A DNA stretch of 64,000 nt, from assembly GCF_009931435.1 (NCBI RefSeq), contig NZ_CP043414.1; one strand, given 5' to 3'. This DNA comes from Escherichia coli. Its GTDB lineage: Bacteria > Pseudomonadota > Gammaproteobacteria > Enterobacterales > Enterobacteriaceae. The translations under genes were made by a program, and so were the position numbers. This document shows positions 12,758-29,005 of the stretch, one piece after another. Numbering within the stretch: the first letter of the stretch is position 1; every line of letters starts with the position of its first letter. A model generated the notes under the pieces. The model ran no database searches. It saw only the letters and a list, made by a program, of their open reading frames with translations, and was not told the origin of the DNA.

Positions 12758-14872
12758 TTAATCAGCCACTAATAGCGGACTAGGGATACCAGATGATGAA
12801 ACAAACAGCCCTTTTACGGCACGGGTTGCAGCCACATGCAGTAACGCGCGCTCATTAAATAATGCATCACGCTGTTCAACGGGATCATCGGATGCTAATG
12901 CTTTTATTTCCGGCACAACGCCTTCGTTAATCCCCACCAGGAACACATACTGGAACTCAAGCCCTTTAATACGGTGCATCGTTGCAACTCGCACGCCTGG
13001 GCGTGCATCGCTGTCACCGCTATCATTGCCTAAATTAAATGTCTCAATTCCGGCGTCATTGAGTGCTGATGCGTAGCGGTCACAAGCATGTTTAGTACGC
13101 GCAGTAATGCAGATATCCTGAGAACGAACCTGATTCGCCAGCAATGCCTGAATTTGCTTGACGAGTGTTGCAGCCTCTTCTTTGAAATCTGCCGCATGCG
13201 TAATCATGGGCTTTTCCCCGTGCAGTAATGACAAATAATCATTACTGGTATCCGCTTCGCCATCGAGGTTATCAACCTTCACACCAGTTAACAGCCCAAC
13301 AGCAAATTGACGCGTCTCTTCTGTGGTCCGATAGTTAATCTTCAATTTTTTACTGCGACGACCACGGACGTTAATACCACACTGACCAAGAACGACCTTA
13401 TTGCGATAAATACGCTGATGCCCATCCCCGACAATAAACAGATCGTTGGGCGACTCGGGAACCAGGCTGCGAATAAGAGTAAATGCCGGGGCACCGATAT
13501 CTTGAGCTTCATCGACGACAATACTGCTATAAGGTAGTTGGACCTGCTTTTCTTTAAACAGAACAATAGCCTCATGCATGGCATCGCCCATTTCGCGCAG
13601 TTTGGCACGCGCCATTTGTGCTCTGAATTCTTCGAAAACTGGCCAGATTTTCGCCCGTTGAATACGGGATAACGCTGTACCACGTCCAACCCGGCTGACT
13701 TTGAGGTATTCCTCCCGGGTGTAAACCGCATTTGGCTGGACAACGCGTTGCCACTCTTCAGCATAGAAATTGTCAGGTAGCCCCAGTTCGGCAGGTGCCT
13801 GCTGCAAGGCATAGTTCCAGCATTTACGTCGCCCTTCATCGCTGTCGTATACCACGCGGAAATCATAACCGTGGCGTTTTAGTTGGTCGCTCATCCAGGC
13901 ATCAATGTTAACGACGTCAATACGCGCCATCTCTTCTCGCGTACACAACCGCTGGAGATTAGCGCGAATATCTGCCGCCAGGTTACGCGTAAAGGTCGTG
14001 AAAAGTACCTTCTTACCGGGTTTATCTACCAGACGCTGAGATAACCACCGCGCACGGTGCATTGCAACAACCGTTTTCCCTGTACCTGCACCGCCCAGTA
14101 CTCGTACCGGACCATTAGCGGGCGACTCCACCAGTTTTCGCTGGCTCGGGTGCAGAAATACACGCCATTTTTCTAAAGGCGCATTAAGCATCTGCAATAG
14201 TTCCTGTTCATTTTCAACGACATGGAAGCGACGTTTACTTCGTTCAATCGCCTCCATAAAGTCGTTGGTATCAACAGGCTCATCACGATGATCGTTAAAC
14301 TCTTCCAGCACTTCCTGGTAATCCAGCCCTTCTGCCAGCCAGTGCAGAGGTTCCCAGGCTTCTGCTGGCATTATGCTTTCAAGTTGATTAAGCCCGGCTT
14401 CATCGGTAAGCGCCATCACCTGATCAATAAAGACAGGCGGCACACCCAGGGCCAGAATCTGTTCCGCGCTGTAAGCTGCGAAGAGTTTCGGTTTATCAAC
14501 CACCGTTTCCGCTGCCGGTTTGATATAGCTAATATCAATGACCTGAATCGCGCCAGTAACCGGGTGAATCGAACAATCATGCCGCCGCGCCCAGTCATAT
14601 GCTTCGTCGTGTTTATCCACCCACATCAGCATATACAGAGCACCCTGTTCAGGTTTCAGAACAATGCCGCGATAAGTTTGATCGATTCGCACCGAATGGA
14701 CATTTTTACTGCGCGCATCGTGGATCTTTTCATAGTTAAGTCCATTACTGGTCGGGTCCTGACGGAATTTGGAGATGAATTCCTGCACCTTTTTTTGCTG
14801 TGCTTTTGGGATCCGCGCGAATGCGCCCAGAAAACCATCAGAAAGTGCCACCTTGGGCGTTTGCACCGTCAT
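12758..14872 (-). CDS. UvrD/Rep-like superfamily-1 helicase with an extra N-terminal domain of about 200 aa (last gene of the DISARM-like operon)
   Basis: SF1 helicase motifs in order: Walker A GGAGTGKTVVAMHRA, VVDEAQDIG (motif II), FIVGDGHQRIY (motif III), KINYRTTEE (motif IV), ATMHRIKGLEFQYVFLV (motifs V/VI). The N-terminal region (...NVHSVRIDQTYRGIVL...) is not helicase-like. Its start overlaps the stop of the upstream giant gene by 4 bp (ATGA-type coupling). Confidence 0.7.
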   Translation of the reverse strand: MTVQTPKVALSDGFLGAFARIPKAQQKKVQEFISKFRQDPTSNGLNYEKIHDARSKNVHSVRIDQTYRGIVLKPEQGALYMLMWVDKHDEAYDWARRHDCSIHPVTGAIQVIDISYIKPAAETVVDKPKLFAAYSAEQILALGVPPVFIDQVMALTDEAGLNQLESIMPAEAWEPLHWLAEGLDYQEVLEEFNDHRDEPVDTNDFMEAIERSKRRFHVVENEQELLQMLNAPLEKWRVFLHPSQRKLVESPANGPVRVLGGAGTGKTVVAMHRARWLSQRLVDKPGKKVLFTTFTRNLAADIRANLQRLCTREEMARIDVVNIDAWMSDQLKRHGYDFRVVYDSDEGRRKCWNYALQQAPAELGLPDNFYAEEWQRVVQPNAVYTREEYLKVSRVGRGTALSRIQRAKIWPVFEEFRAQMARAKLREMGDAMHEAIVLFKEKQVQLPYSSIVVDEAQDIGAPAFTLIRSLVPESPNDLFIVGDGHQRIYRNKVVLGQCGINVRGRRSKKLKINYRTTEETRQFAVGLLTGVKVDNLDGEADTSNDYLSLLHGEKPMITHAADFKEEAATLVKQIQALLANQVRSQDICITARTKHACDRYASALNDAGIETFNLGNDSGDSDARPGVRVATMHRIKGLEFQYVFLVGINEGVVPEIKALASDDPVEQRDALFNERALLHVAATRAVKGLFVSSSGIPSPLLVAD

Positions 14873-17800
14873 TTGTCACCTCCGGACAGATGTTGCAATG
14901 TATTTTCGTCAATTGGCCCGAATGCAACGTGCCAACCCCTGGTTGTGAATAATGGAATAAATTCTTGATTATCAATAATCAATGCCCATTTTTGTGATGG
15001 CCAGGCGAGATCGGCTTCCGCAATAATTTCACCTTCATCATTTTGCAATTCGTAGCCGAGAGTCGGCGCAGAGAGAGAATGAGACTGAAGCAACGCGATC
15101 TCTTCAGCGCTTAATAAGCCAAACTCAATAATCTCAGCCCAACTTTCATCAGTCTCTGGTACTGCCTCTGGCGTTGCCGTAACTTTAACGTCAACGCTTT
15201 CCTGCGGTAAATGTACGGCTTTACGGCTGGTAAAGGTCATATCCGGCAGGAACTGTAACAGGTTTACCAGTCGCCAGAAGCCATTGAGTCCCGCTTCATA
15301 ACCGTCATCCTGCGTATAGCGATCGTCAAAACAGATATGCAAACGCAGCCAGCTGCGCATTTGTGCGACACTGGTCGTCGGTTTAATGGCTTGTTGTGGC
15401 AACACCGAAGCCAGCTCAATAAATTGCTGCGATGAGTTACAGCTATCGAGTAAACCACCAAAGACAAACGGTTCGTCTGGCAAAAGCTCTGCTAGCCGCC
15501 AGTCTGGCGCGTTTTCCTGCATTTCATAGGCATACTTTTGTTTCGTTCCCGCGTCCTGTGACTTCTTCACATCCAACCACACCCAGGCATGTGCAGCAGC
15601 CATTTTCTGCCATAACTGCGTTCTTCCTCCCGGCTCGGCGAGATAATCCAGCAGCAGTGCAAAACTGTTGCGTTCCCGGAACGACGCTTCAAGGGCCGCA
15701 AAGTTGGTATCGTGAAACAGGTTATAAAACTTAGGCTGTTTCATATCCGGGTTATGCCCAAGCCCCAGGACATCCTGAACATGTTTAAGCCCAGGCTCTT
15801 TGAGATCGGCCCACGTGACTGTCCACACCCAGAAATTACCGCTATCCCGAATCGCCTGGCGTTTTTGCACATCCTCTGCGACGCTATTTTTGTGAAACGC
15901 AAAGCCATCAAGGAAAATAGCTACCGGTTTAATGGCATCAGACTGCATAAGCGGATATAGCACGTAATCCGGGCGACAAGGGATCCCCACAGCCTCTTTA
16001 GCGCCTAAATCCACCTGAGCTTTAAGATGCCAGCTCATCATCGGTTCGCTGCGGGTGTTAATAATCCACCCAGCGCCCTGATGCGCGTAACTGCGACTGA
16101 CAATCAGGTTTTTATTTTCTTGCAGGCAGCTAATAAACCGTTTTTCCAGCTCACTGCCCATCATGGCTTCGAGGGAAATGTTTTTGATGGAATCAATTAC
16201 CCGTATCGAATCTCTTGCCTGCAAAATTTTCGCCAGCAAGAGACGCGCCTGATCGCGGGAGACATACTTCATGCGCCCACGGTCACGGTAAGCGTAAACG
16301 CAACGATAACAACCATCTTTATGCGTATCATGGTTGCAACTGCATTCCACTATCGCCTGATAGGCCAGTTCAAGTAATTTCAGCAAATTGTCGGGAGTGC
16401 GCATCAGCTCTTTAAGAGAACCAGTCCCCCCCGGGACGGTATCGTAAATCACCAGATACTGCCGCCAGGATTCGCCTTCATTTTCCGGCTCGCGGTACAC
16501 AACGCCTTTCAGGTGATCGACATTCCCCTTGAAGTAATGTTTAAGGCCGAGCTGGATCGCCGCCCCAAGAGAAGCCTCCACGACACGGTCATTACTGTAA
16601 CTGCTTACCGGGAGCAGAATTCGCAACGCTTCTGACTCCAGCTGGCGATAGAGATAGAGATAATCTTCGAACTTCGCCTTTTCCGGTTCCGTGCGATATT
16701 TGCAGCTCAAATCATGACGTGGTTCATGATCGCGAGGACGCTGTACCATGCCGCACCCCAGGCAAACTTTAAACCCGGTTCGCTTCTTCGCTTCTCCGGC
16801 AATCATCAACTCATTGGCATCATCCGCCATTTTGCCGAAGTTGATATCCCGCAGGGTGACTTTGCTTAAAAATTCAAAACCAAACGGAACTTCGCCTTCC
16901 TCAATCGCGTATGCCGCCGATACATCTTCTTTTTCGAAACTAACCAATAGCTGACGCTGGAAGAAAGCAGGTTCACGGCTGTCGCTCTCGTCGCTGATCT
17001 GGCTATCACGTGCGCTGGCGCGGGCATACACCTGGCGAAGTTTCAGCAGCGTGGTTTTTTGTCCGGCGTCGGCCCACCCCGGTGTGCCACATTTCGGGCA
17101 ATATTTATGCTGGTCGCCCGTCTGGTCGATATTTTCGCTGTAGTTACAGTGGCTACAGATACGCCAGTTCTCCGGCTCAGAGACCTTCAGGTCTATCTGC
17201 TCAATTTCAACTTTATGCCCACCGGCATAGAAATTATTCAGCGGAGCCAGCTCAGCCAGCGCCGTTGATGCCGGGCGTTCATATTCGAAAGTGGTGTTTT
17301 GATATTCACGCGCTTCCCCGCCTTCTTTACGCCGCCAGAGCACAGAACGTAACGTAATACCGGCTTCCGGGAAGGCGTAGTTAGGCAGCAGACCTTCATC
17401 CGTGAGGAAATTCAGCGTCTGCTTATTGTTGATTTGATTGACTAGCGCCATCAGCGCCTGCCGTTCTGAAGTTAACTCGCGCATATCGCTGTCAAAGTTT
17501 TGATCGCGCGGCGCGTTCTCCAGCTTATCGATACTGCGCTTGAGTTTATCGATGCGTGAACGCAGAGATTTGCGATCTTCCACCAGCAGTTTTAACGCCT
17601 CTTCGATACGCTGCACCAGAGAGCGTTGTCCTGGCGCGCCCTGAAGATAAGACAACAACTGTTGGCGAGTTTCTGCGGCAAGATCGGGGAAGATCGCCGT
17701 AAATTGTGCAGCAATCTCCGCATGATGCTGTTCGATATATCTCAGTAAGTTATACGGAAAACCCGATTTACGCCCGAACTCCAGCTCATCCAGCATCTGT

Positions 17801-20800
17801 TTGACGTTTTTACAGATAGCGGATTCTGGTACACCGGTTTTCACCCAGTTATCCATACAAAAAGCTGCCAGCTGGCGTTCGAGAATAGCCGTTGCATTGA
17901 GGAAGACGCCAGGAGCCTGCACCTGGCCCTGCATCATCTCCAGCGGTTCTTCAAAGAAAAACTGATCGTGCGGGTTCCCTTCTGCCACGGTAATGTTTAA
18001 CGCGTTACCATCTTTACGACCGGCGCGACCAATACGCTGCAAGTAGTTGGCCTGAGCAGGTGGGACAGAACAGAGTAAAACGGTGGAAAGATCCCCAACG
18101 TCAATACCCATCTCCAGCGTCGGTGTTGCCGACAACAGGTTGATATTCCACGGTTGGTTGCCACGGTAGAACGATTTTTCGGTGGCTTCGCGATCTTCAC
18201 GGCTAAGCAGCCCCGTGTGTTCTGCGCCCTGCACGCGCGCGATGTCCATGTTCTCCCAACGCCAGGTCGCCATATTGTCGACTTCCTGGTAACGACCTTC
18301 ACAACGTAAAGAGAGACAAGGCGCATTACGCCACTGCCAGCCTTGATCGGCCGGAGCCCGGACAACCTCACGGCAACATGAGCAATTAAGCTGAACGACG
18401 TCACGGCTCACCACCAGCGCCGAAGGCACCAGTCCCCAGGCTTCACGCCCTTTGGTGTCAAAATCTTTTACTACTCCGGCTATTTTCAACGCCGTAAACA
18501 GGCGTCGTAACACTGTTTCCGCAACGCTACTGATAAACAGATTATTGCCGTTACTCAGCGTGCGATTGATCCAATGCTGATACCAACTGGGGTTAGACTT
18601 CGCGCCAATCAGGCGATGGAAACCATTAATTTTTTCAAACGACGCATAAGCCGGTTTACGCGTTTTCGGACCGATAGAAGGCATATAGCGCGATGTACGC
18701 TCTTTTTGCGTCATCATAAAGGTCGTGCCATCACGGCGATAACTTTCGAACGCCGGATGCATAACGGCCCCGGCCTGGCGTTGATACCAGATAACCCCCA
18801 GCGCCAGGTGCGCTACCTGCTCGACGCTCACACCGGACATCTCATCACCCAGCTCTTCACAAAGCTGTTGATGCAGGGCGGTAATTGCCGGATTAAAGCG
18901 TTCTTTATCCACTCCGGCAACGGCATAACCGGTGGCTTCCAGCGTACGTCCGATACGCGCGCGCAGGGTAAATTCGCTGTACACCTCCCAGTCGAGGCGC
19001 AGGGAAACCAGCTCCGGCAGATCGGAGTTCTCCGCCAGTTTGCCTTCATTTTTCAGTGTCTGATAATCATTCAGCCACTGCATATTTGGTGCGATGAAGT
19101 TCGCTGCAAAATGAGCATCGTCCGGTGAACGTTCACGCGTTTGTTGGCAAACACGCGCCGCGAACGCATCCAGCGGTAATGTCTCTTTTTCGCCAAGAAC
19201 ACTGGCGATTTGCCCACGAATCATCAGCGGCCAGGTTCGGGCAGTAAAAAAGCTGGCACGATGCGCGGCGTCTTGTACCGAGTCAGAAAACGTAATCAGC
19301 TTTTTATGTTCGTTGAACTGGCTGCCATAAAGCTGGTGAATCATCACCGCCGACAAACTGGCAGCCCGTGACCCCAGAATCGAAATCCCCTGTTTGCTGT
19401 TGCAGTACGGGCATTCATTAGCAAACTCCAGCTCGTCCTTACGCTCTTTGAGCATATCCGGGATCAGTACCTGCAACAGTTCCGTATGACCGCAATGTCC
19501 ACACTGGACGCTGGACTGTCGGTTCAGTTTCAGACAGGTAGGGCACAGTTTCTGGTGTGCGCCACTGACCGCTTTTTCGTTGTTATCCGGGAAAGCAAGG
19601 ACGATGGAGCGCCCTTTTTCAAAGAACTGGCGATAAATGCCGTCGAGGTCTGTTTCCAGCTGAACGCTTTGCCCATGACGCAGGCTGGCCCAGCCAGTTG
19701 CGTGGCAGTCACGGCAGTGGATAACCGGCAAATAGTGTTCGCGGTCTTCCACCGCCACATCATCGGCAAACACCAGTCTCGGCGTTTTCGCCACGCTGGC
19801 GACCAGACGACGCATCTCACGAAGCCACAACTGGGAGCGCAGTTGCACAAACGGCAGCACCGGGCGCGCTTTCTTCGCCTGGAGACGTTTTTGCCGATCG
19901 TGTTCCATTTCCGGTACTTCGAGACGTGCCTGTGCGATCAGCGCCAGAATGCTTTGCAGCACGCGTCGGGCATGGTCGGCGCTTTCTGCCAGCATAACCT
20001 GGAGATTTTCCAGACACTCTCGTTCAGAGAGGATCCCGCCTTGCAGATCATGGAGTAAGACATGCATCACGCTGTGGCGGCGTAACAGTGACCCCAGCGC
20101 AATACGCTTTTCACGCCCGTCGTCGCTCTCCAGATCGTCCGGGAGTTGCAAGTCGCTGTCGGGGAACCACAAAGGGATTTGCCCGTTAAGATACGCTACC
20201 GGGGTAGCGTAACTCTGCGGGTCCAGGGCCGAAGCGACCTCCTGCCCCGGATACTGACTGTACGCAATGGCGTAATCCTGCAAGTACTCCGCTGCCGTGT
20301 AGCGATCTTCGCGAATAACGGCGTCATCGGTAAACGGCTGGTCAAAGATTGTTTTTGCGTAATCGAGCAGTTGCCCCAGTTCGTCGCCGACGGTCGCTGA
20401 TGTCCCGACACAGGCGAATCGTTGGTTATCCACACCTATGTGATGCTTCAGACGTCGCACCAGACAGGCCAGATCCGACCCTTGCGCGCCATCAAACGTA
20501 TGCAATTCATCCACGACCAGGTAGCGCAATGAACCGGGCTGGTTGTAACGCCAGAGCGGCTGATCGCCAGGGCGCATCAGCAGGTAGTCGAGCATTTTGT
20601 AGTTGGTCAACAGGATGTCCGGCGGGCTTTCGCGCAGCGTGTGCTTGCAGGTAATGACCTTTTCTGCCGACATTTTTTTGCTGGGTTCGATTTCGCTGTC
20701 GCCGACAAACAGGCCGACGGTCACCTTGCCATGCAGTTGTGGATCGCTGGCGATGGTTTTGGCGAAACGGCTGGCCTGATCGGTTGCCAGGGCGTTCATC

Positions 20801-21210
20801 GGGTAGATGATAATCGCTTTAACCCCGGCTTGTGACGCGCCCGCGCAGTGGTTGAGCAGCGGGAACATAAAACATTCTGTTTTACCGGAGCCGGTACCGG
20901 TAGCGACCAGTGTCGGCTGTGGCGCGTCGCTTCCCAGACGCTGAAATGCCCGGGCCTGATGCGCGTGCGGCGGGAACGGCAGCGTCAGATTAGGGAAAAA
21001 ATTCAGCGGTAAGTCACTTTTACGAAACGGCAACTGGGCGGAAAGGTATGGTCCTTTCAGCAGCGTTTCCGGCTGGGCCAGAAATTGCTCCAGCATTGAG
21101 ACATTATCGTTATTCTCACCGTTAAACAGCGGGCTGTTTAGCGGGAACGCCGCCCGTAAAAAGGCGGCAACGCTGTCGGCGACCTGCCGACTGACAACGG
21201 ACGGCAACAT
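14869..21210 (-). CDS. Giant 2113-aa fusion protein: N-terminal DEAH-box SF2 helicase, DUF1998-type zinc ribbon, and a C-terminal restriction-endonuclease-like (Vsr/DUF559-like) module (DrmA+DrmB-like or DruE-like)
   Basis: Helicase motifs GTGSGKTECFMFPLL (I), VVDELHTFDGAQG (II), VGTSATV (III), QRIGRAGRKDG (VI). Cys clusters CSHCNYSE...YCPKCG and ECSCNHDTHKDGCYRCVYAY are typical of DUF1998. C-terminal segment RPDYVLYP...VAIFLDGFAFH...D..KRQAIRDSGNFWVW resembles a PD-(D/E)xK Vsr-like nuclease. Start overlaps the methyltransferase stop. Confidence 0.7.
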   Translation of the reverse strand: MLPSVVSRQVADSVAAFLRAAFPLNSPLFNGENNDNVSMLEQFLAQPETLLKGPYLSAQLPFRKSDLPLNFFPNLTLPFPPHAHQARAFQRLGSDAPQPTLVATGTGSGKTECFMFPLLNHCAGASQAGVKAIIIYPMNALATDQASRFAKTIASDPQLHGKVTVGLFVGDSEIEPSKKMSAEKVITCKHTLRESPPDILLTNYKMLDYLLMRPGDQPLWRYNQPGSLRYLVVDELHTFDGAQGSDLACLVRRLKHHIGVDNQRFACVGTSATVGDELGQLLDYAKTIFDQPFTDDAVIREDRYTAAEYLQDYAIAYSQYPGQEVASALDPQSYATPVAYLNGQIPLWFPDSDLQLPDDLESDDGREKRIALGSLLRRHSVMHVLLHDLQGGILSERECLENLQVMLAESADHARRVLQSILALIAQARLEVPEMEHDRQKRLQAKKARPVLPFVQLRSQLWLREMRRLVASVAKTPRLVFADDVAVEDREHYLPVIHCRDCHATGWASLRHGQSVQLETDLDGIYRQFFEKGRSIVLAFPDNNEKAVSGAHQKLCPTCLKLNRQSSVQCGHCGHTELLQVLIPDMLKERKDELEFANECPYCNSKQGISILGSRAASLSAVMIHQLYGSQFNEHKKLITFSDSVQDAAHRASFFTARTWPLMIRGQIASVLGEKETLPLDAFAARVCQQTRERSPDDAHFAANFIAPNMQWLNDYQTLKNEGKLAENSDLPELVSLRLDWEVYSEFTLRARIGRTLEATGYAVAGVDKERFNPAITALHQQLCEELGDEMSGVSVEQVAHLALGVIWYQRQAGAVMHPAFESYRRDGTTFMMTQKERTSRYMPSIGPKTRKPAYASFEKINGFHRLIGAKSNPSWYQHWINRTLSNGNNLFISSVAETVLRRLFTALKIAGVVKDFDTKGREAWGLVPSALVVSRDVVQLNCSCCREVVRAPADQGWQWRNAPCLSLRCEGRYQEVDNMATWRWENMDIARVQGAEHTGLLSREDREATEKSFYRGNQPWNINLLSATPTLEMGIDVGDLSTVLLCSVPPAQANYLQRIGRAGRKDGNALNITVAEGNPHDQFFFEEPLEMMQGQVQAPGVFLNATAILERQLAAFCMDNWVKTGVPESAICKNVKQMLDELEFGRKSGFPYNLLRYIEQHHAEIAAQFTAIFPDLAAETRQQLLSYLQGAPGQRSLVQRIEEALKLLVEDRKSLRSRIDKLKRSIDKLENAPRDQNFDSDMRELTSERQALMALVNQINNKQTLNFLTDEGLLPNYAFPEAGITLRSVLWRRKEGGEAREYQNTTFEYERPASTALAELAPLNNFYAGGHKVEIEQIDLKVSEPENWRICSHCNYSENIDQTGDQHKYCPKCGTPGWADAGQKTTLLKLRQVYARASARDSQISDESDSREPAFFQRQLLVSFEKEDVSAAYAIEEGEVPFGFEFLSKVTLRDINFGKMADDANELMIAGEAKKRTGFKVCLGCGMVQRPRDHEPRHDLSCKYRTEPEKAKFEDYLYLYRQLESEALRILLPVSSYSNDRVVEASLGAAIQLGLKHYFKGNVDHLKGVVYREPENEGESWRQYLVIYDTVPGGTGSLKELMRTPDNLLKLLELAYQAIVECSCNHDTHKDGCYRCVYAYRDRGRMKYVSRDQARLLLAKILQARDSIRVIDSIKNISLEAMMGSELEKRFISCLQENKNLIVSRSYAHQGAGWIINTRSEPMMSWHLKAQVDLGAKEAVGIPCRPDYVLYPLMQSDAIKPVAIFLDGFAFHKNSVAEDVQKRQAIRDSGNFWVWTVTWADLKEPGLKHVQDVLGLGHNPDMKQPKFYNLFHDTNFAALEASFRERNSFALLLDYLAEPGGRTQLWQKMAAAHAWVWLDVKKSQDAGTKQKYAYEMQENAPDWRLAELLPDEPFVFGGLLDSCNSSQQFIELASVLPQQAIKPTTSVAQMRSWLRLHICFDDRYTQDDGYEAGLNGFWRLVNLLQFLPDMTFTSRKAVHLPQESVDVKVTATPEAVPETDESWAEIIEFGLLSAEEIALLQSHSLSAPTLGYELQNDEGEIIAEADLAWPSQKWALIIDNQEFIPLFTTRGWHVAFGPIDENTLQHLSGGDK

Positions 21211-24200
21211 CAGGCGCTCTCCTTATCTTGTGCAAAGAACGCCCAGGCCACTTTGTAGTCGTCTTCGCGATCCGGCTTGATAAACGGTGCCTGCCAGGTG
21301 ACGGTACGGCGCTCGCCTTCGTCGCTGCGGGTATAGTCATCAAAGGTGACGCTGACGGTACCGGTTTGCAAATGTTTGACATCATCCCAACCGATGGCTT
21401 GATCGGTGCAGTCACCGCCGGTCCACTCCGGGCTGTCGACGTTAAAGACAAAGCCGTTTTTCAGGTCAGCTTTACGCGCGGTGCGAGGCAAGCCAACGCC
21501 CACCAACCCTTTGCTTGGGGTAAAGATGATGCGGCCGTTTTGGTCGTACCAGGTGTCCGCTTCGTACTGACGCATCACCGGGAACTGTACACGGTAAATG
21601 GTAAGCAGCTCTTCGAGGGTTAACCCCAGCGCCTGTGCCACCAGAACGTCGATTTCCACCAGCGCCTGACGACGACTGTAGTCGGAGCGTAAGGCACAGT
21701 TACGCTGCCACTCTGGGGTCAGATTGGCGAAGAAATCTTGTGGGAGCTGCGGGAGATCGCGGCTCCAGCGTTGGGTATTGAAGTCTGGGGTGTAGCAGGA
21801 TTGCCAAAGGCCAGCATATACATCATTTACAGAATTTAATGATAATACTAAGCAGTATAATAATGCCTTTTGTCTCGGATTGAATAATACGTATGAGAAA
21901 CCATCAAGCATCTGATGTAAGTTTGCCTTGCCAGTAGATTTACAAATAAAATCAAAAGGTAAAGAAAAACACATACCTGAATGTTCGAGTAACTGATTCT
22001 GTGAGCTATAGCAGTAAGAACGTACTGCGTTCATGTGACTTATTTCTGGCGGATAAATAGCACTAATTAGTGTACGTTCCCCCGATTGAGCCAACATGGC
22101 TCTGATAGCTAAGCGATAATAATCTGTTACCTTCTTCGGTTCATCTTCAGCCAGTTCAGTCCATGTAACGCATGGAGTACGTTTGGCATACTCCTGTGCA
22201 TCACAGGCTGGAATATAGTTAGTGCGCGGCAAATAGTCGTCGGGCAGAGTTAGCAAGTCTAGGTTATCGTATGCTTTATTCGTGTCACAAACCGCTCTAG
22301 GCGTATTGTAGAAAGGATTGCCAACAAAAAAATGAGGGCCAGACAAAACCCATTGTGATGCTTCTTCCGGGAACTGTGTATGTCGCTCAATTGTACCATC
22401 GCTTTGCTGATTAGTTTCATGCCACATTTCTAGAGAATAATATTGCCCCTGCAAATCACCTAATCGCCTAGGTTGTTTCGCAAACTTTTCAAGTACTGTA
22501 ACTAATTGTGTAGCATGCAACGCAGGAAGACGGGCTTCCTGGGCAGGAGTTCCGACAACATCATAAAGACGCGCAAAAAGACCCAACTGTTTTAAATTTA
22601 TAGGCACGACTCGATCGAAATGTCCCTGGAAATTCCATTTAACTTTTACTTTGCCATCGATTTCAGTTTCTTCTTTTATCCCCGGGACAATGCCTTCCCC
22701 TTTATGTTCAAAACACGCGTCAATAGTTTGAGGAATAAATAAATTTGCTATATTTGAGAATGCCACTATCTGAGAATAGGGGCCATATACATTGATGCTA
22801 AATCTAGTGTGATTATCTACTTCAGCAAATATTTTAACTTCATTGGCAAATTGAAAATGCGCCCTCAACCTCGGGTACACTGCCGCACGCAACTGCCCAC
22901 CTTTCGGGTCATCATAAATCCCTTCCGGGTGCAGGAAGCCTGCCACGCCTTTCTCTGCCCCTAAGCGCCATGCCTGCGGCAGGAAGCATTTATACAAGTT
23001 GGTCTGCACCCCGCGCAGTACCGGGTAGTTTTGCTGCGCATTGAGGAAGTTTTGCATCCCTTCACAGCCTTCATACTCGCTGCGCCAGGCCGCTTCCAGC
23101 GCTGGGATCTGGTTAAAGGTATCAACACGCAACGTTGCCAGCTTCGATGCACTCAGCTTACGCAGCACAAATTCCGGCTCGTAATCACCCAGCACGCCCG
23201 CTTCCTGCCATTCCACTTTTAGCCACGGCGGGTTTCCGAGCATCAGGTCAAAACCGCCGCGCTCGGCAAACAAGTCGCAGAACTCCAGATCCCAGTGGAA
23301 GAAACGGTGCTGCTTTCTCAGGGCATCGACAATCGCCAGACGCGGCAAATGGCGGAACAGCACATCGGTTTTCAGACGACCAGCAACGGAAAACAGCGAA
23401 GACTCTTCTCGCAGCAGGCCTTCTTCGGCAAACAGATCGCCAGTGGTGTGATCCGCAACTTCAGTGACTTTTTCCGTGATTACAATCCCGTCGAGCAGGG
23501 TTTCAATCTCAAACAACCAGGTACCGCGATCCGGTAGCTCATCAGCTTTGTCGATCGGCCAGAACCACAGCGCGCACCAGTAGTCCATCACCCAACGCAG
23601 CTTCTGGTAGGCGCTGTTATCTTCAAGACGACCGCTAAAGGTTTCATCTTTACTGCTCAGCGAAGAACGTGTCTGCTCGCTGTTTTCTGCCGGCCACACC
23701 GGGTAGCTGTCGGCGGTTTTCAGACGTTCTGCTTTAAGTTGCTGGCGATAGGTGTTCCACAGTGCTTCCACCTTTTCGCTGATACGCTGCACATCAGCAA
23801 TCTCATGCCCGGCAAAGCTTTTAATAAACTCTTTGCGCCAGCTGTCCAGCGCTTTGAAGTCATCCGGATAACGCTGCTTAACAGTTTTATCGCTGTAATT
23901 AGCCATACCGCCGTCGGGCAGCAGGAAGTGGAAAATCTGCGTCTCTTCACGCGGCGTGTTCATCGCCAGTTCGACCGGCTCGCTGTTAAGCCAGCTCGGA
24001 TCTTTGACTTTTTTGTAGGTCAGTTCGCTCTTGTTGAACACCTGACGGCGCGCGCCCACCAGCGAGTTACCGCAGTGCAGCTGGTAACCAAACCACGGTA
24101 CAAAGGCATCGCCACTGATGGCGTTCAGCCACAGTGACACTTCCGCCAGCTCCACCGCCACCGGGTTTAAGTCCACGCCGAAAACGTTGTTGTCGGCAAT

Positions 24201-26144
24201 GTACATTTTCACCCGCTGTAACTCCTGGGTGTAACGATCCTGCGGAATACGTCGACCTTCCGCCTGCTGTTTGTGGAACAGATACGCTTCCGCCAGCTGG
24301 TTGATGGCTTCGTTAAGGAACGCCGCGCTGCCCATCGCCGGTTCGCACACGGTGAGGTTTAAGATGGCATCAGCTTTGGCGTGCGGATCGCTAATGGGAT
24401 CAATCTGCTCCTTAAACAACTCTTTCAGGGCATATTTAACCAGTGAGCGGGTCAGCACTTCCGGGGTGTAATAAGAGGCAGATTTCTCACGGTCGCGTCC
24501 GGCCATACGGTAGATAAAACTGCCTTTGCGGTGAATGCGCAGGCTGCCGTCTTTCTCGTAGACCTTCTCGTCTTCGTGGTATTTGCCAATCTCATCCTTA
24601 CTGACGAAGTAACCCGTCTCCAGCTCGTTAAACTCTTCTCCGGCTTTCTTCACCTCGTAGAGATCTTCGCTGGCGAAGAATCCGCGATAGGAGAGCAGTG
24701 CCTCATACACCGCACCCAACTGGTTGATACCCAACTGGCGATAAGAAATACGTCCGCGGCGGTTAAAGCGCTCTTTGCCCGGGCGGCTTAACGACATCGC
24801 CTGGATAATCTGTTGCAGGGTTTCGTTACGGAATACCACGCGGTTAAGAATGCGCGTGTTGTTGGCATCAAACAGATGACTTTCCAGACGCGGGACGCTG
24901 AACTGATGACTATGGATGGTGATCCGGTCGCCGCTCTCCAGGTCACTCTGCATTTTCACGCCGCCGTTGTAGCCTTCGCGCACCAGTTTAAACAGCATAT
25001 TCAGGCTGTCGTGGAAGTAGCGCCCGTTGCGATCTTCTTCGCTGGTCAGCGGGATCATCTCCAGATCGCGCAACGTTTCCAGGCTGTAACCTTGCAGATA
25101 GGTTTTGGCGGTCATCGGCGCATAACCCAGCTCCGGGCGCGCTTCAATGTAGAACAGGAACAGCAGGCGGTACATGTAACGCAGACATTCGCGGCTCAGT
25201 TCATCCGGGTCCACCGCACGGTTACCGGTATAGTTTGCCAGGCCACGGTCGATCAGGTAATGCATCGCTTCGTTGCCCAGCAGCTCAATGCTTTCGCGCA
25301 GGGCATATTTCAGATCTTCCGACACGCCAAACGCATGTTTGTGCGAATTGTCATCCAGCGAGTCAAGATAAGGTGCCCCACTGCCCGGCAGCAGAGAATC
25401 TTTATGTAGCAACACCGCCGTCGCTTTCAGCGTATCCGTTTCACGACGACTTAAAATCTCTTCAAAATCAAAACGCAGCAGACGGTTTTGCGCCCACTTA
25501 GTACGGTCCAGCAGCAATAGCTGACGGTTACCGAGCAATAGCACAAAACGCGGAGGTTCATTTTGGGTGAAGACCGCCGTAGAGAGCAGATCTTGCCAGC
25601 TGCGATATTCACCGTTGGCTTTTTTGCGCAGGCTGTCGCGCTTATGTTTGTCGGTATCCGCCGGGAATTGCGCGGTCAGTAAAGAGAGCGCCAGCGGATC
25701 CAGCGTTCCCTCTTCCTGATCGTGTGCTTCGACAATCCACAGCCACGGGCTACCGTCAGTGCTGTTGTAACGCGCCAGTACCGGCAGCGGTGTATCGTCA
25801 TCCAGCATTTGGATCTGCGGCGTAATTTCGTAACCCAGCGCCTTTAACAATGGCTGCCAGCGATTACGTTGATCGGCCAGACGTTGCGGGATCTGACGCT
25901 GTTTTTCGTGCTCGGCAAGTTTGCGGAAAAACTCAGTCGCCAGACTGTTAAACTGGTTCCACGGAGCGCGGTATCCCGGCTCTACGTCTTTGCCCTGTTC
26001 ACGAGCGGCACGCTCCGCTTCACGCGCTGCATTTTCCTGGGCTATCCAGGGTTCCAGCACATCGCGGATATCACTGGTGAAAACCTCACCCAAATAGTGG
26101 TTAGAGTAAAATTCGTTTTCGTTATTAATACCGACCAGCGCCAT
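21210..26144 (-). CDS. Very large (1644 aa) gamma-class N6-adenine DNA methyltransferase (DrmMI/PglX-like)
   Basis: AdoMet-binding motif I (...LNLTVCEPAMGSAAFLNEAINQ) followed later by the catalytic motif IV LMLGNPPWLKVEW (NPPW), which is the gamma-class order. It has long N- and C-terminal extensions and sits 2 bp downstream of the SNF2 gene. Confidence 0.75.
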   Translation of the reverse strand: MALVGINNENEFYSNHYLGEVFTSDIRDVLEPWIAQENAAREAERAAREQGKDVEPGYRAPWNQFNSLATEFFRKLAEHEKQRQIPQRLADQRNRWQPLLKALGYEITPQIQMLDDDTPLPVLARYNSTDGSPWLWIVEAHDQEEGTLDPLALSLLTAQFPADTDKHKRDSLRKKANGEYRSWQDLLSTAVFTQNEPPRFVLLLGNRQLLLLDRTKWAQNRLLRFDFEEILSRRETDTLKATAVLLHKDSLLPGSGAPYLDSLDDNSHKHAFGVSEDLKYALRESIELLGNEAMHYLIDRGLANYTGNRAVDPDELSRECLRYMYRLLFLFYIEARPELGYAPMTAKTYLQGYSLETLRDLEMIPLTSEEDRNGRYFHDSLNMLFKLVREGYNGGVKMQSDLESGDRITIHSHQFSVPRLESHLFDANNTRILNRVVFRNETLQQIIQAMSLSRPGKERFNRRGRISYRQLGINQLGAVYEALLSYRGFFASEDLYEVKKAGEEFNELETGYFVSKDEIGKYHEDEKVYEKDGSLRIHRKGSFIYRMAGRDREKSASYYTPEVLTRSLVKYALKELFKEQIDPISDPHAKADAILNLTVCEPAMGSAAFLNEAINQLAEAYLFHKQQAEGRRIPQDRYTQELQRVKMYIADNNVFGVDLNPVAVELAEVSLWLNAISGDAFVPWFGYQLHCGNSLVGARRQVFNKSELTYKKVKDPSWLNSEPVELAMNTPREETQIFHFLLPDGGMANYSDKTVKQRYPDDFKALDSWRKEFIKSFAGHEIADVQRISEKVEALWNTYRQQLKAERLKTADSYPVWPAENSEQTRSSLSSKDETFSGRLEDNSAYQKLRWVMDYWCALWFWPIDKADELPDRGTWLFEIETLLDGIVITEKVTEVADHTTGDLFAEEGLLREESSLFSVAGRLKTDVLFRHLPRLAIVDALRKQHRFFHWDLEFCDLFAERGGFDLMLGNPPWLKVEWQEAGVLGDYEPEFVLRKLSASKLATLRVDTFNQIPALEAAWRSEYEGCEGMQNFLNAQQNYPVLRGVQTNLYKCFLPQAWRLGAEKGVAGFLHPEGIYDDPKGGQLRAAVYPRLRAHFQFANEVKIFAEVDNHTRFSINVYGPYSQIVAFSNIANLFIPQTIDACFEHKGEGIVPGIKEETEIDGKVKVKWNFQGHFDRVVPINLKQLGLFARLYDVVGTPAQEARLPALHATQLVTVLEKFAKQPRRLGDLQGQYYSLEMWHETNQQSDGTIERHTQFPEEASQWVLSGPHFFVGNPFYNTPRAVCDTNKAYDNLDLLTLPDDYLPRTNYIPACDAQEYAKRTPCVTWTELAEDEPKKVTDYYRLAIRAMLAQSGERTLISAIYPPEISHMNAVRSYCYSSQNQLLEHSGMCFSLPFDFICKSTGKANLHQMLDGFSYVLFNPRQKALLYCLVLSLNSVNDVYAGLWQSCYTPDFNTQRWSRDLPQLPQDFFANLTPEWQRNCALRSDYSRRQALVEIDVLVAQALGLTLEELLTIYRVQFPVMRQYEADTWYDQNGRIIFTPSKGLVGVGLPRTARKADLKNGFVFNVDSPEWTGGDCTDQAIGWDDVKHLQTGTVSVTFDDYTRSDEGERRTVTWQAPFIKPDREDDYKVAWAFFAQDKESA

Positions 26145-26146: not shown

Positions 26147-29005
26147 TTAACCCTCCGCTCCGGTGATAACAGCAATTACCTGAATGTAGGGTTCTTTTTC
26201 AGTCGTCATGGTGTCCTCAATCCATTCAATATAGCTGTCAAAATTGTGTTCGATTTCGCGTTGTCTCTGCTCTTTACGGCTCTGCTTAACTGACAATTGC
26301 TGTTTGTTATCGGCAAAATCCAGCTCAAGTTGGCTCAACTGCCGCCCACGCAAAACGTCCAGCTTTTGCAGATGCTCATTCAGTTGCTGGTTAATGTGCG
26401 TTTCAAACGCATTCCGATCATGGATGAATACCTCCCGGGCATGAGCAATAGCCGCTTCCAGTAAATCCTGCTGGCGCTGGTGATTACGATCTTTACCGCC
26501 GCTGTTAGTCAGCTTGTTACTCAACTGCGGATGACGTTGTAAAAACTCAGCAAATGGCTGACTGCCGATTAGCGATTCACGGTTAAAGCTCACCACTATC
26601 CACGGGTTCACCATCGGATGTGATTTACGGTTCGGGAATAACCCGGAAAGAATGAAGTGATCTTCATCGGGTTCAAGCAGGTATGGCAGACGGATAACCG
26701 GTGCCTGATGACGACCAAAAGCCGAAGAGATTTTATCGTCCAGCCACTGCACTACCGGGTTGATTTGCCAGAGATACTGCACATCGGGCCAGGCATGTTG
26801 CTCACCGCGAGCGCGTGCAATCGCGTCGGTGATGACGGTTTTATCCTGACTTAAATAGAGCTGCCAGTTCTCCGGGGCGATTTCAGGCGGTAGCTGGTTG
26901 AAGCGGCGGCGTAACTCCTCCGGTGCCACCAGCGACAAGGTATTATCAGGCAAGGTTTCATACTGGATAGTTTGACCACTGGCTTTCAGGTAACCCAATG
27001 CTCTTTCGCAGTACGCCTGTTCGCTGGCAAACAAGCTGGTGTCTGTTTCGGTAACCATTGAGGCATCGCTGGAAACCGCACTGCATATTTCGCCAAACAG
27101 ATCATGTTCGGCGCTTTCCGAGACGTTGCTGTTCAGCAGTTGATCAAACAGGCTGGCACCATCATCCTGCATCATGAACTCTGCAACCTGCTCTTCTTCC
27201 TCTTCCTGGGTAAATTTGCCGGTAAACTCCGAACTGTCCCCAATGTTCTTCTGCGCCTGTTCGTCTTTGTTGATCAACACTTCCAGTACGCGCATATCGC
27301 CATTGATCTGCGGTTCGCTGGCCTCGGTAAGCAGATAGCGGATTTGAGGCTGATGTTTTTGCCCATAGCGGTCAATACGCCCGTTACGTTGCTGGAATAC
27401 CATCAACGACCACGGAATATCAAAGTGAATCATTTTGTGGCTAAGGTGATGCAGGTTGATCCCTTCAGATGCCACATCCGAACAAACCAGAAGACGCAAC
27501 GGCGACTGCGTTTTACCAAAGGCTTCTACGGTTTCCATCAACACCGTATCGCCCTGATCGCCGCGCAGCGTGGCGATCTGATCATCTTTCAATTTCAGAT
27601 CCGCTCGCAGTTGCTGTTCGAGGAACTCCAGCGTTTTAATGCTTTCGGTGAAGATCACCAGGCGATCTTCCGTGTTATTGGCTTTCCAGGCGAGGTCTTT
27701 TCGGATGGTGTCGAGCAGCAACTGGTATTTGCTAAACTGGCTGGCATCAATGTTATTCAGCGCCAACAGCAATGACTCCAGTTCGTTGATCTGGCTCTGG
27801 CTATTATGATCTTTACGGCTCTCAAGACGCTTCAGACGATTAGCCACTACGCTGGCACACGCCATCGGGCTGGAAAATAGCGCTTTTTCGAGGGTTATCT
27901 TGAACAGACGACCTTTGTTAGACTGGGCCTGTTCATCGTCATCATCACGGAACTGACTCTCAACCAGGCGACGGTATGCTTCTTCTTCGGCACCGGATGC
28001 CAGGCGAGTCAGTTTGACAATATTGCGCTCGGGGAACTCGCCAGACATCTGATCTTTCACGTCTTTTTTGAAGCGACGGACAACCAGATTTTTATCGGCA
28101 AAGTCGGCGTATTCATACTCTTTCGGGTTGGCGATCGCCGTCGGGTCAAGCATGTTCATCAGGCTGGCAAAACTTTCAGCTTTACCATCATGCGGCGTTG
28201 CTGAAAGCATAATCAGCGTATCGCTGCGCCCGGCGAGCAGTTTTGCCAGTTTACTGCGTAACGAACTGGTTCCACGTTCTGCGACGTTATGGGCCTCATC
28301 AATGACAATAATATCCCACCAGGCATTTTCCAGATGGTGACGATATTCAATATCTTGTTTCAGCGTATCGATGGAGATAATGGTCTTGTCAAAATAGTGG
28401 AACGGGTTGTGGTTGGTAGGGATGCGGTTACGCACTTTTTGTAAACCAGCAGAATCCAGGCGGGTCAATGGGATCGCAAAACGGCTCCAGAACTCCTTCT
28501 GGAATTGTGTCAGCATCGATTTAACCGCCAGAACCAGAATACGTTTTCCGCGCCCACGACGGATCAGTTCCGAAACCAGAATACCCGCTTCCAGCGTTTT
28601 ACCCAGACCGACAGCGTCGGCAATGAGTATCCGCTGACGCGGTTGTGCCAGCGCCATCCGCGTAGGATCGAGCTGAAACGGCATGGAATCCATCGCCGCC
28701 AGATGTCCAAAATGGACTTTACTGTCTGTCGGTACGCGTTGGCGTAACTGACTTTCAATATACAACTGTGCCGCCTGATAATTGGCGGATTCATCTTCCA
28801 CCAAATGCGTTTTTGCGGGATCAAGGATCTCTACTTTTTGTTCCAGTTTGGTCAGAAATAACCCTTCTTTACCGCGCACCAGCTCTGAAATACCATCGCA
28901 GGTCAGCAAATACCCACCATCACCACTGTCATCCGCCCGGCGAATACGCCATTCGGCATCACGAATAACCACCCGCATACCAGGTGCATAATTTTGCTTA
29001 TTCAT
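26147..29005 (-). CDS. SNF2/RAD54-family helicase (DrmD-like), first gene of the DISARM-like operon
   Basis: ADAVGLGKTLEAG (motif I), IVIDEAHNV (DEAH), LMLSATPHDG (motif III), C-terminal QQRNGRIDRYGQK (motif VI). Preceded by a 223-bp intergenic region containing inverted repeats. Confidence 0.75.
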   Translation of the reverse strand: MNKQNYAPGMRVVIRDAEWRIRRADDSGDGGYLLTCDGISELVRGKEGLFLTKLEQKVEILDPAKTHLVEDESANYQAAQLYIESQLRQRVPTDSKVHFGHLAAMDSMPFQLDPTRMALAQPRQRILIADAVGLGKTLEAGILVSELIRRGRGKRILVLAVKSMLTQFQKEFWSRFAIPLTRLDSAGLQKVRNRIPTNHNPFHYFDKTIISIDTLKQDIEYRHHLENAWWDIIVIDEAHNVAERGTSSLRSKLAKLLAGRSDTLIMLSATPHDGKAESFASLMNMLDPTAIANPKEYEYADFADKNLVVRRFKKDVKDQMSGEFPERNIVKLTRLASGAEEEAYRRLVESQFRDDDDEQAQSNKGRLFKITLEKALFSSPMACASVVANRLKRLESRKDHNSQSQINELESLLLALNNIDASQFSKYQLLLDTIRKDLAWKANNTEDRLVIFTESIKTLEFLEQQLRADLKLKDDQIATLRGDQGDTVLMETVEAFGKTQSPLRLLVCSDVASEGINLHHLSHKMIHFDIPWSLMVFQQRNGRIDRYGQKHQPQIRYLLTEASEPQINGDMRVLEVLINKDEQAQKNIGDSSEFTGKFTQEEEEEQVAEFMMQDDGASLFDQLLNSNVSESAEHDLFGEICSAVSSDASMVTETDTSLFASEQAYCERALGYLKASGQTIQYETLPDNTLSLVAPEELRRRFNQLPPEIAPENWQLYLSQDKTVITDAIARARGEQHAWPDVQYLWQINPVVQWLDDKISSAFGRHQAPVIRLPYLLEPDEDHFILSGLFPNRKSHPMVNPWIVVSFNRESLIGSQPFAEFLQRHPQLSNKLTNSGGKDRNHQRQQDLLEAAIAHAREVFIHDRNAFETHINQQLNEHLQKLDVLRGRQLSQLELDFADNKQQLSVKQSRKEQRQREIEHNFDSYIEWIEDTMTTEKEPYIQVIAVITGAEG

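What the first reader, a model, noticed from the sequence alone, without database searches (positions are those of the whole stretch)
21800..22870. About 1.1-kb low-GC block embedded inside the otherwise GC-rich methyltransferase gene, possibly a swapped target-recognition module
Most of the MTase gene is GC-rich, but the stretch from roughly 21800 to 22870 (about protein residues 1090..1450) switches abruptly to AT-rich sequence of the kind seen in the neighbouring Zorya and DruH genes, then returns to GC-rich. Sharp compositional mosaicism inside one ORF suggests recombinational replacement of a domain. In large amino-MTases of BREX and DISARM systems the C-terminal region is thought to determine target specificity, so this may be a specificity-swap cassette. 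Boundaries are by-eye estimates.
Basis: seen in the sequence. Interest (0 to 1): 0.6.

Follow-up and report, generated by a model that had tools for sequence, protein, structure and literature searches.

The report
Swappable DNA-recognition module in ArmB methyltransferase
The AT-rich kilobase inside this large methyltransferase gene is real and encodes the enzyme's DNA-reading domain, which differs sharply between strains and has been exchanged between them in two separate pieces, much as restriction systems change targets; the sequence each version reads has not been measured.

Summary
Inside the 1644-aa gene at 21210-26144 (- strand), GC falls from 0.55 to 0.40 over window 21817-22858. The drop is almost all at third codon positions (GC3 0.31 versus 0.65), and 0 of 500 codon shuffles reach it.

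The gene is armB, the PglX/DrmMI-like adenine methyltransferase of an ARMADA type II defence system (armABCD). It sits beside Druantia III and Zorya II in the leuX island of an Escherichia genome.

Across 120 close homologues, residues 1-1100 and 1470-1644 are nearly invariant. Residues about 1100-1460 are hypervariable, in two lobes joined by a conserved linker:
- Lobe A, residues 1100-1200, has at least 10 types.
- Lobe B, residues 1345-1460, has at least 15 types.
- The two lobes occur in 36 combinations.

The window's allele is a chimera. It has an E. coli-type scaffold, a lobe A otherwise seen on Serratia-type scaffolds, and a lobe B shared with O157:H7.

The low GC occurs in every allele examined, so composition alone does not date the swap. 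The methylation motifs are unknown. This is a new example of a known phenomenon.

The parts
21210..26144 (-). armB, the 1644-aa PglX/DrmMI-like N6-adenine DNA methyltransferase of ARMADA type II
   Evidence: ORF. PADLOC matches REase_MTase_IIG PDLC03614 at E=4.5e-287 and DrmMI at 3e-57. It is 93.8% nt identical to the EDL933 gene in the OI-172 armABCD operon.
24318..24341 (-). SAM-binding motif I, PAMGSAAF, containing G605
   Evidence: Translation checked. G605 is the residue mutated in the ARMADA preprint.
23223..23234 (-). Catalytic motif IV, NPPW, residues 971-974
   Evidence: The N971A mutation abolishes defence in NCTC 12900 ArmB.
21817..22858 (-). Low-GC block as defined by the composition change-point
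   Evidence: GC 0.395 versus 0.549 and GC3 0.31 versus 0.65. 0 of 500 codon shuffles reach the observed signal.
21765..22847 (-). Hypervariable block, residues 1100-1460, interpreted as the bilobed target-recognition domain (TRD)
22545..22847 (-). Variable lobe A, residues 1100-1200
   Evidence: At least 10 types, 39-85% identical to each other. The window's type is 98-100% identical to P0017/18 (Serratia) and P0021-23, but only 53% to O157. dS is 0.25-0.28 against 0.66 for the scaffold.
22170..22247 (-). Conserved linker LPDDYLPRTNYIPACDAQEYAKRTPC, residues 1300-1325, which is the junction between the A/middle part and lobe B
   Evidence: Low entropy. The identity switch between the window and EDL933, Rb-50 and Combat11I9 falls at gene nt about 3900-3960.
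21765..22112 (-). Variable lobe B, residues 1345-1460
   Evidence: At least 15 types, 30-60% identical to each other. The window's type is 98-99% aa and 99-100% nt identical to EDL933.
21213..21737 (-). Conserved C-terminal domain, residues 1470-1644
   Evidence: Entropy below 0.17 and 95-99% identity across alleles.
26147..29005 (-). armA, a DrmD/BrxHII-like SNF2 helicase
   Evidence: PADLOC DrmD at 1.4e-99; NCBIfam DISARM_DrmD at 4e-104, below the family cut-off.
14869..21210 (-). armC, a YprA/DruE-like giant helicase with a C-terminal HNH-like (ZorE-like) domain. Its start overlaps the armB stop.
   Evidence: PADLOC DruE3 at 4e-104 and ZorE2 at 5.7e-9 for residues 2021-2096. The junction is shown.
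12758..14872 (-). armD, a GajB-like UvrD helicase
   Evidence: PADLOC GajB at 2.7e-36.

Best explanation
The low-GC block encodes the target-recognition domain (TRD) of ArmB, the adenine methyltransferase of an ARMADA type II anti-phage system.

Shown here:
- The block lies about 130 residues after the catalytic NPPW motif, the same relative position as the TRD of PglX/BrxX.
- It folds as a TRD.
- It is the only hypervariable part of an otherwise near-invariant protein.
- It consists of two variable lobes, A and B, separated by a conserved linker.
- The lobes assort independently among alleles and move between diverged scaffolds by homologous recombination anchored in the conserved flanks and linker.
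- The window's allele is one such chimera.

Inferred:
- Each lobe contacts part of a short asymmetric DNA motif, as the two alpha/beta subdomains of the BrxX TRD do.
- Exchanging a lobe would therefore change which motif the host methylates.
- ArmB's catalytic motif is required for defence, so the same exchange would also change which unmethylated motif ARMADA treats as foreign.
- Diversity would be maintained by frequency-dependent selection, because phages that acquire one strain's methylation pattern, or lose its motif, remain sensitive to strains with other TRDs.

The low GC3 belongs to the whole cassette pool, not to this strain's acquisition.
For: Identity of the gene:
- The operon order is SNF2, MTase, YprA-like helicase, UvrD, next to DruHE and ZorABE.
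- Two preprints name this ARMADA II armABCD.
- NPPW at 971 and G605 match the published mutants.

Hypervariability:
- Entropy is at most 0.26 for residues 1-1100 and 1476-1644, and 0.5-1.8 for most of 1100-1475, except the linker at 0.19.
- 108 of 120 close homologues have lobe A below 60% identical to the window, and 114 of 120 have lobe B below 60%, on scaffolds 93-100% identical.

Modularity:
- At least 10 A types and at least 15 B types occur in 36 combinations. All four gametes are present, for example A0/B0, A0/B4, A2/B4 and A2/B0.

Transfer between scaffolds:
- Against Serratia-type loci, scaffold dS is 0.66 but lobe A dS is 0.25-0.28, and linker plus lobe B dS is 0.23 for L020.
- Against EDL933, scaffold dS is 0.11, lobe A dS is 1.9 and lobe B dS is 0.09.

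Function retained:
- dN/dS is 0.03-0.30 everywhere.
- The block model has pLDDT 95.

Fold:
- The larger model of residues 560-1644 matches PglX/BrxX best.

Precedent:
- PglX specificity can be re-engineered in its TRD.
- The related DrmMI methylates ACACAG.
- The EDL933 preprint reports that diversity of the island lies mostly in armB.
Against: - No methylation motif is known for any ArmB allele, so no link between TRD type and specificity has been shown.
- The authors of the EDL933 preprint expect ArmC and DruE to act without sequence specificity, and class 1 DISARM depends only partly on its motif. The defence consequence of a TRD swap may therefore be smaller than in classical restriction-modification.
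- Lobe B is largely helical. By offset from the NPPW/NPPY motif it overlaps the region that forms conserved spacer helices in PglX, so it might not contact bases.
- Low GC3 in all alleles is not explained by the specificity model itself.
Confidence: 0.8

Rival explanations
1. The block diversifies mainly to escape phage inhibitors, such as DNA mimics like Ocr that bind the DNA-binding groove of the methyltransferase, and not to change DNA specificity. On this view the variable lobes are an anti-anti-defence surface.
For: - Ocr binds BrxX through TRD and CTD residues that also contact DNA.
- Lobe B is the most variable part (entropy up to 1.8). It is largely helical, which is unusual for base-reading loops.
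Against: - Ocr recognition of BrxX is described as independent of the recognition site and driven by charge, so wholesale domain replacement would be a poor escape route.
- The types differ by 40-70% of residues throughout the folded core, not only at surface patches.
- The same pattern in HsdS, MmeI-family enzymes and PglX is tied to specificity.
- This rival is not exclusive of the main explanation.
Confidence: 0.1
2. The block is a recent foreign insertion peculiar to this strain: a fragment from an AT-rich donor, a mobile element or an intein-like insert. Its composition would then simply mark a one-off horizontal transfer.
For: - The compositional boundaries are sharp and GC3 is 0.31, like the neighbouring Zorya and DruH genes.
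Against: - All 16 alleles compared, and three distant ARMADA II loci from backgrounds of GC 0.40-0.60, have a homologous block of the same length with lowered GC.
- The reading frame is continuous, and the domain is present and alignable in homologues across phyla.
- No second copy or mobile-element feature is present.
Confidence: 0.03
3. The block is a programmed, within-cell switching region, either a shufflon or phase variation, like the invertible hsdS loci.
For: [quoted passage not shown]
- Tyrosine invertases lie in the window at 4628-6304.
Against: - No silent cassette, partial armB copy or repeat of the block exists anywhere in the 64-kb window at either the nucleotide or the protein level.
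- The invertases are FimB and FimE of the fim switch.
- In E. coli genomes each hit is a single armB copy, with a median of 1 place per genome.
Confidence: 0.02
4. The block is a poorly constrained linker drifting under AT-biased mutation, so the variation has no functional meaning.
For: - GC3 is low.
- dN/dS is somewhat higher in the block (0.12-0.30) than in the scaffold (0.04-0.05).
Against: - dN/dS is still well below 1.
- The structure prediction is very confident and shows a specific TRD fold.
- Core residues are conserved across 82 homologues.
- Identical modules recur on scaffolds that have diverged more than the modules have, which drift cannot produce.
Confidence: 0.03

Closest known systems
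ArmB of ARMADA type II (E. coli NCTC 12900, EDL933 OI-172, ATCC 8739); bioRxiv 10.1101/2025.09.15.676423 and 10.1101/2025.09.22.677730
   Same: Same gene and operon. [quoted passage not shown]
   Different: - The window's recognition block is not found as a whole in any of 5,426 complete E. coli genomes; the best match is 86.4% nt.
- The preprints note only that armB is the variable gene. In the text I read they do not locate the variation to a TRD or describe two shuffling modules.
PglX/BrxX of type I BREX (PDB 8C45, 8Q56, 9EWZ)
   Same: - It is the best structural match for residues 560-1644.
- It is a gamma-class adenine methyltransferase followed by a bilobed TRD and a conserved C-terminal domain.
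- Its TRD is the most variable region and sets a 6-bp asymmetric motif.
- The methyltransferase is needed for defence as well as for methylation.
   Different: - There is no detectable sequence similarity to any PDB chain, even with a family profile.
- The partner proteins differ: YprA-like, SNF2 and UvrD helicases instead of BrxC, BrxZ and BrxL.
- In the library searched, pglX variation is described mainly as phase variation and point changes, not as two-module shuffling.
DrmMI of class 1 DISARM (Serratia sp. SCBI)
   Same: A homologous methyltransferase (PADLOC DrmMI at E=3e-57) paired with a DrmD-like SNF2 helicase. DrmMI methylates the asymmetric motif ACACAG.
   Different: - ArmC replaces DrmA, DrmB and DrmC.
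- DISARM works partly independently of its motif.
- No allelic TRD series is described for DrmMI in the papers read.
Type I HsdS specificity subunits and MmeI-family (type IIL/IIG) enzymes
   Different: - ArmB's two lobes are not homologous to each other (hhalign probability 0.3%), unlike the duplicated TRD1 and TRD2 of HsdS.
- The TRD is fused to the methyltransferase.
- No nuclease domain was detected.

Membership tests
ARMADA type II (ArmB) | Strict gene order: BrxHII/DrmD-like SNF2 helicase, PglX-like methyltransferase, YprA-like helicase, GajB-like UvrD helicase | tested here: met
   ORFs at 26147-29005, 21210-26144, 14869-21210 and 12758-14872 are all on the - strand, with overlapping or abutting stops and starts.
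ARMADA type II (ArmB) | Close sequence identity to the experimentally tested ArmB, including the mutated residues G605 and N971 | tested here: met
   93.8% nt identity over 100% of the EDL933 gene, and 99% aa identity outside the block. The motifs were verified.
ARMADA type II (ArmB) | Anti-phage activity that depends on armB | not testable with these tools
   Reported for the NCTC 12900, EDL933 and ATCC 8739 alleles, not for this allele.
Gamma-class N6-adenine DNA methyltransferase with C-terminal TRD (PglX, MmeI, M.TaqI, CamA group) | Motif I (GxG) lies upstream of motif IV (NPPY/W), with the recognition domain after the catalytic domain | tested here: met
   GSA at 605-607, NPPW at 971-974 and the variable TRD-fold block at 1100-1460. 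Foldseek gives PglX, CamA, M.BseCI and M.TaqI.
Gamma-class N6-adenine DNA methyltransferase with C-terminal TRD (PglX, MmeI, M.TaqI, CamA group) | m6A methylation of a defined DNA motif | not testable with these tools
   No methylome data were found for any ArmB allele.
Target-recognition domain fold (HsdS/MmeI/PglX type) | Structural similarity of the block to solved TRDs | tested here: met
Type I HsdS-like tandem TRD architecture | Two homologous TRDs produced by internal duplication | tested here: not met
   A profile-profile comparison of residues 1095-1300 against 1301-1470 gives probability 0.3%, E=0.21.
Type IIG/IIL restriction-modification fusion (the name of the best PADLOC model) | A nuclease domain fused to the methyltransferase | tested here: inconclusive
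   Pfam finds no nuclease domain in residues 1-660 or 601-1644. No structure-based test of the N-terminal 560 residues was done. The PADLOC model name probably reflects its training set.
Phase-variable specificity shufflon | Silent alternative cassettes or inverted repeats near the expressed gene | tested here: not met
   blastn and tblastn of the block against the whole window return only the block itself.

The most novel reading that the evidence does not exclude
ARMADA specificity may be set combinatorially. Lobes A and B would each read a separate part of the recognition sequence and could be exchanged independently. One conserved scaffold could then display on the order of 10 x 15 or more specificities. 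The extreme, ancient and trans-generic polymorphism would mean that ARMADA's defence, contrary to the expectation voiced for ArmC and DruE, depends strongly on motif methylation.

A further unexcluded twist concerns the family-wide GC3 deficit of the TRD. It may reflect a general rule that hypervariable segments escape GC-biased gene conversion because they cannot pair with other alleles.
Probability: 0.3. Interest if true: 0.6.

Novelty: new member of a known kind. Interest (0 to 1): 0.45.

Why it matters
ARMADA II is reported as the dominant phage barrier of EHEC O157:H7 and acts in synergy with Druantia III. How it tells self from non-self is not established.

This analysis locates nearly all of the island's natural variation in a TRD-fold block that is exchanged in modules across genera. 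That points to motif methylation as a selected and therefore functional part of the mechanism.

It also supplies a ready-made allelic series of A/B combinations on one scaffold for methylome and phage-escape experiments. For phage therapy against EHEC, it predicts that host-range barriers will differ between strains that look identical at every other defence gene.

As evolution, it is one more clear case of the conserved-frame, swappable-TRD pattern known from type I, IIG and III restriction systems and from BREX.

Tried and rejected
- Sequence searches of ArmB against PDB chains found nothing, either with the single sequence or with the 70-sequence profile. Only fold comparison worked.
- The first Pfam attempt failed because the protein exceeds 1200 aa. 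The scans of the two halves gave only weak Eco57I and N6_Mtase hits.
- A search for a second copy of the block or silent cassettes in the window found none.
- A test for internal duplication of the two halves was negative.
- A scan for intragenic promoters or terminators in the AT-rich block showed no enrichment: 4 found against 2.7 +/- 1.5 expected.
- A tblastn of the block against 50,697 phage records gave no match, so there is no sign of phage-borne copies.
- Literature searches for an ArmB methylation motif, or for O157 or ATCC 8739 methylomes assigning one, found nothing usable.
- The homologue search with the block alone returned mostly fragments, with the best at 75% identity. It added little beyond showing that the domain is universal in the family.
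- The first MAFFT L-INS-i run timed out and was repeated with --auto.
Full report
OBSERVATION

The ORF at 21210-26144 (- strand, 1644 aa) shows a sharp drop in GC. In 200-nt windows GC goes from 0.56-0.59 to 0.33-0.46 between about 21780 and 22900, then back to 0.57. A two-breakpoint likelihood scan puts the segment at gene nt 3287-4328, which is window 21817-22858, with GC 0.395 against 0.549. Shuffling codons within the gene gives a maximum log-likelihood ratio of 5.4 +/- 1.7 (highest 11.7) against 36.1 observed, and 0 of 500 shuffles reach it.

The shift is mainly synonymous. GC3 is 0.31 against 0.65 and GC2 is 0.37 against 0.39, with only mild changes in amino-acid composition.

WHAT THE GENE IS

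The window is a chromosomal region of an Escherichia genome. Its lptF/lptG region is 95-99% identical to nearly all E. coli genomes. It carries the island inserted at tRNA-Leu(CAA), between fim/nan and ahr/idn.

The island holds four defence loci:
- Zorya II at 39114-42587.
- Druantia III, with druH at 35543-38902 and druE at 29229-35552.
- A four-gene operon on the - strand, listed below.
- A phosphorothioate-DNA-binding HNH endonuclease at 44144-45073.

The four-gene operon consists of:
- A DrmD-like SNF2 helicase at 26147-29005.
- The methyltransferase at 21210-26144.
- A DruE/YprA-like 2113-aa helicase with a ZorE-like HNH tail at 14869-21210.
- A GajB-like UvrD helicase at 12758-14872.

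The same arrangement is annotated in EDL933 and ATCC 8739. Two 2025 preprints name it ARMADA type II, armABCD. They show that it protects against many phages, and that all four genes and the ArmB NPPW motif (N971A) are needed. The window protein has NPPW at 971-974 and the GxG glycine at 605. The gene is therefore armB.

IS THE BLOCK HYPERVARIABLE?

Yes.
- 525 of 5,426 complete E. coli genomes carry armB. Many match in two pieces at about 97% identity, with about 20% of the gene unmatched.
- In an alignment of 16 DNA alleles, the flanks are 93-98% identical to the window. Gene nt about 3300-4400 fall to 26-85% identity wherever the module type differs.
- In 121 proteins (the window plus the 120 best database clusters, from Escherichia, Salmonella, Klebsiella, Serratia and Cronobacter), column entropy is at most 0.26 for residues 1-1100 and 1476-1644.
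- Entropy reaches 1.0-1.8 in two lobes, A (1100-1200) and B (1345-1460). Between them lies a moderately variable middle part and a conserved linker at 1300-1325.
- The 3' edge of the low-GC segment (window 21817) lies about 50 nt inside the variable block (21765). Otherwise the two definitions coincide.

MODULARITY AND RECOMBINATION

The window's own allele is a chimera:
- Its scaffold is of the E. coli type, 99-100% aa identical to the O157 cluster and other E. coli clusters.
- Its lobe A is 98-100% identical to alleles found only on a second scaffold lineage that is 93-94% identical (Serratia P0017/18, P0021-23, P0001/2). It is only 53% identical to the O157 lobe A.
- Its lobe B is 98-99% identical to the O157 lobe B.

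Synonymous divergence makes the incongruence explicit:
- Against Serratia-type loci, scaffold dS is 0.66, lobe A dS is 0.25-0.28, and linker plus lobe B dS is 0.23 (for L020).
- Against EDL933, scaffold dS is 0.11, lobe A dS is 1.9 (saturated) and lobe B dS is 0.09.

The modules have therefore moved between scaffolds more recently than the scaffolds diverged. dN/dS is 0.03-0.30 throughout, so the modules are under purifying selection. No complete E. coli genome has the whole block above 86.4% nt identity.

Divergence between TRD types sitting on near-identical scaffolds (40-55% aa) is about as great as divergence from homologues in other phyla (23-59%). The types are therefore ancient lineages kept on a young, mobile scaffold.

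WHAT THE BLOCK ENCODES

No PDB chain is detectable by sequence. An AlphaFold2 model of residues 560-1644, built with 70 homologues, is confident (pLDDT 90.4, pTM 0.87). It matches PglX/BrxX of BREX best over about 1,050 columns, then CamA, M.BseCI and M.TaqI.

- CamA, 11.3.
- M.TaqI, 10.7.
- PacII specificity subunit, 10.1.
- BpuSI, 9.9.
- PglX, 9.6, with 253 residues aligned.
- S.BsaXI, 9.2.
- EcoKI HsdS, 8.9.
- MmeI, 8.1.

Fourteen of the first 15 hits are DNA-recognition domains or specificity subunits; I could not identify the other one, Esub1. [quoted passage not shown] PglX specificity has been re-engineered in its TRD.

ArmB's block starts about 130 residues after NPPW, and the PglX TRD starts about 150 residues after NPPY. 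The two halves of the ArmB block are not homologous to each other (hhalign probability 0.3%). This is a single bilobed TRD, not an HsdS-like tandem pair.

MECHANISM

Shown:
- The block is a TRD-fold, hypervariable, two-module segment.
- It is exchanged by recombination through conserved flanks and a conserved linker.

Inferred:
- Each module type specifies part of a short asymmetric motif. The related DrmMI methylates ACACAG.
- Swapping a module changes the host's m6A mark.
- Because ArmB catalysis is required for defence, the swap also changes which unmethylated motif marks DNA as foreign.
- Frequency-dependent selection by phages that carry the previous host's methylation pattern would keep many types in circulation.

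This inference sits uneasily with the EDL933 authors' expectation that ArmC and DruE act without sequence specificity. The strength of the polymorphism argues that the motif matters.

COMPOSITION

Low GC is not peculiar to this allele.
- All 16 alleles have block GC of 0.35-0.46.
- Three distant ARMADA II loci, from backgrounds of GC 0.40, 0.51 and 0.60, have the homologous block 7-8 points below the rest of the gene, with GC3 11-17 points below.

Composition therefore marks the cassette pool and does not date the swap. Why TRDs are AT-rich at synonymous sites is not settled here. The candidates are an AT-rich donor pool, lack of GC-biased gene conversion where alleles cannot pair, or selection linked to H-NS. 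No excess of promoter-like sites was found in the block.

RIVALS

- A strain-specific foreign insertion is contradicted by the presence of the block in every homologue.
- A local shufflon is contradicted by the absence of any second copy.
- Neutral drift is contradicted by purifying selection, the confident fold, and recurrence of identical modules on diverged scaffolds.
- Diversification to escape DNA-mimic inhibitors cannot be excluded, particularly for the helical lobe B. It is compatible with the main explanation.

NOVELTY

Swappable TRDs on conserved frames are well known in type I, IIG and III restriction systems and in BREX. The EDL933 preprint already says that island diversity lies mostly in armB. 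Four things are added here:
- The location of that diversity in a TRD-fold block.
- Its two-module structure with a linker junction.
- Evidence of exchange between scaffolds and across genera.
- The fact that this window carries a combination absent from 5,426 complete E. coli genomes.

This is a new member of a known kind. It is of moderate interest, mainly because it makes the self/non-self logic of ARMADA directly testable.

Noticed in passing
window 45696-47744 (- strand): An AT-rich (GC about 0.34) 682-aa ORF lies between the phosphorothioate-DNA endonuclease and tRNA-Leu, at the edge of the defence island. It has no hit in NCBIfam, PADLOC or Pfam. It could be an uncharacterised defence or island-maintenance gene.
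   Followed up: partly
window 43414-45073: A phosphorothioated-DNA-binding HNH restriction endonuclease at 44144-45073 (NCBIfam NF045808, E=5.5e-131) sits next to a 216-aa ORF with weak type IV restriction-enzyme hits. This is a fourth defence element in the island, after Zorya II.
   Followed up: partly
L013 (E. coli O145 RM9872) 201-5109; also H95, H96 and H143: In O145:H28 strains armB is annotated as a frameshifted or split pseudogene, and the break lies inside the variable block. ARMADA may therefore be inactive or altered in that EHEC lineage.
   Followed up: no
L015 (E. coli XDL) gene nt about 2900-4400: In this allele the diverged, low-GC stretch starts about 400 nt earlier, at about residue 967 around NPPW. 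Identity to the window is 52-73% there. Some swaps therefore also replace the end of the catalytic domain, which in BrxX contributes a base-reading loop.
   Followed up: no
L016, L017, L018 (distant ARMADA II loci): The TRD-equivalent block has GC 7-8 points, and GC3 11-17 points, below the rest of armB in hosts of GC 0.40, 0.51 and 0.60. This is a family-wide synonymous AT bias of the recognition domain with no established cause.
   Followed up: partly
window 14869-21210, residues 2019-2096 of ArmC: The C-terminus of ArmC matches the HNH region of ZorE from the neighbouring Zorya II system (PADLOC ZorE2 at 5.7e-9; NCBIfam ZorE at 2e-4). The two co-located systems share a nuclease module type.
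   Followed up: no
window 21210, 14869-14872 and 26144-26147: The armB stop and armC start overlap (TGATG), and armC and armD overlap by 4 nt (ATGA). armA and armB are 2 nt apart. This suggests translational coupling across the operon.
   Followed up: no
window 54851-58696: The core genes yjgR, lptF and lptG are at least 99% identical to only 3 of 5,425 E. coli genomes, and 95-99% identical to 5,412 of the rest. The window probably comes from a divergent Escherichia lineage.
   Followed up: no
H84, H97 and H146-H162 (plasmid records): ARMADA II with various armB TRD alleles is also carried on E. coli and Klebsiella plasmids of 65-420 kb, including an NDM-5 plasmid. Of all 29 plasmid records matched, across several genera, 12 are predicted conjugative. 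This is a plausible route for cassette exchange between genera.
   Followed up: no
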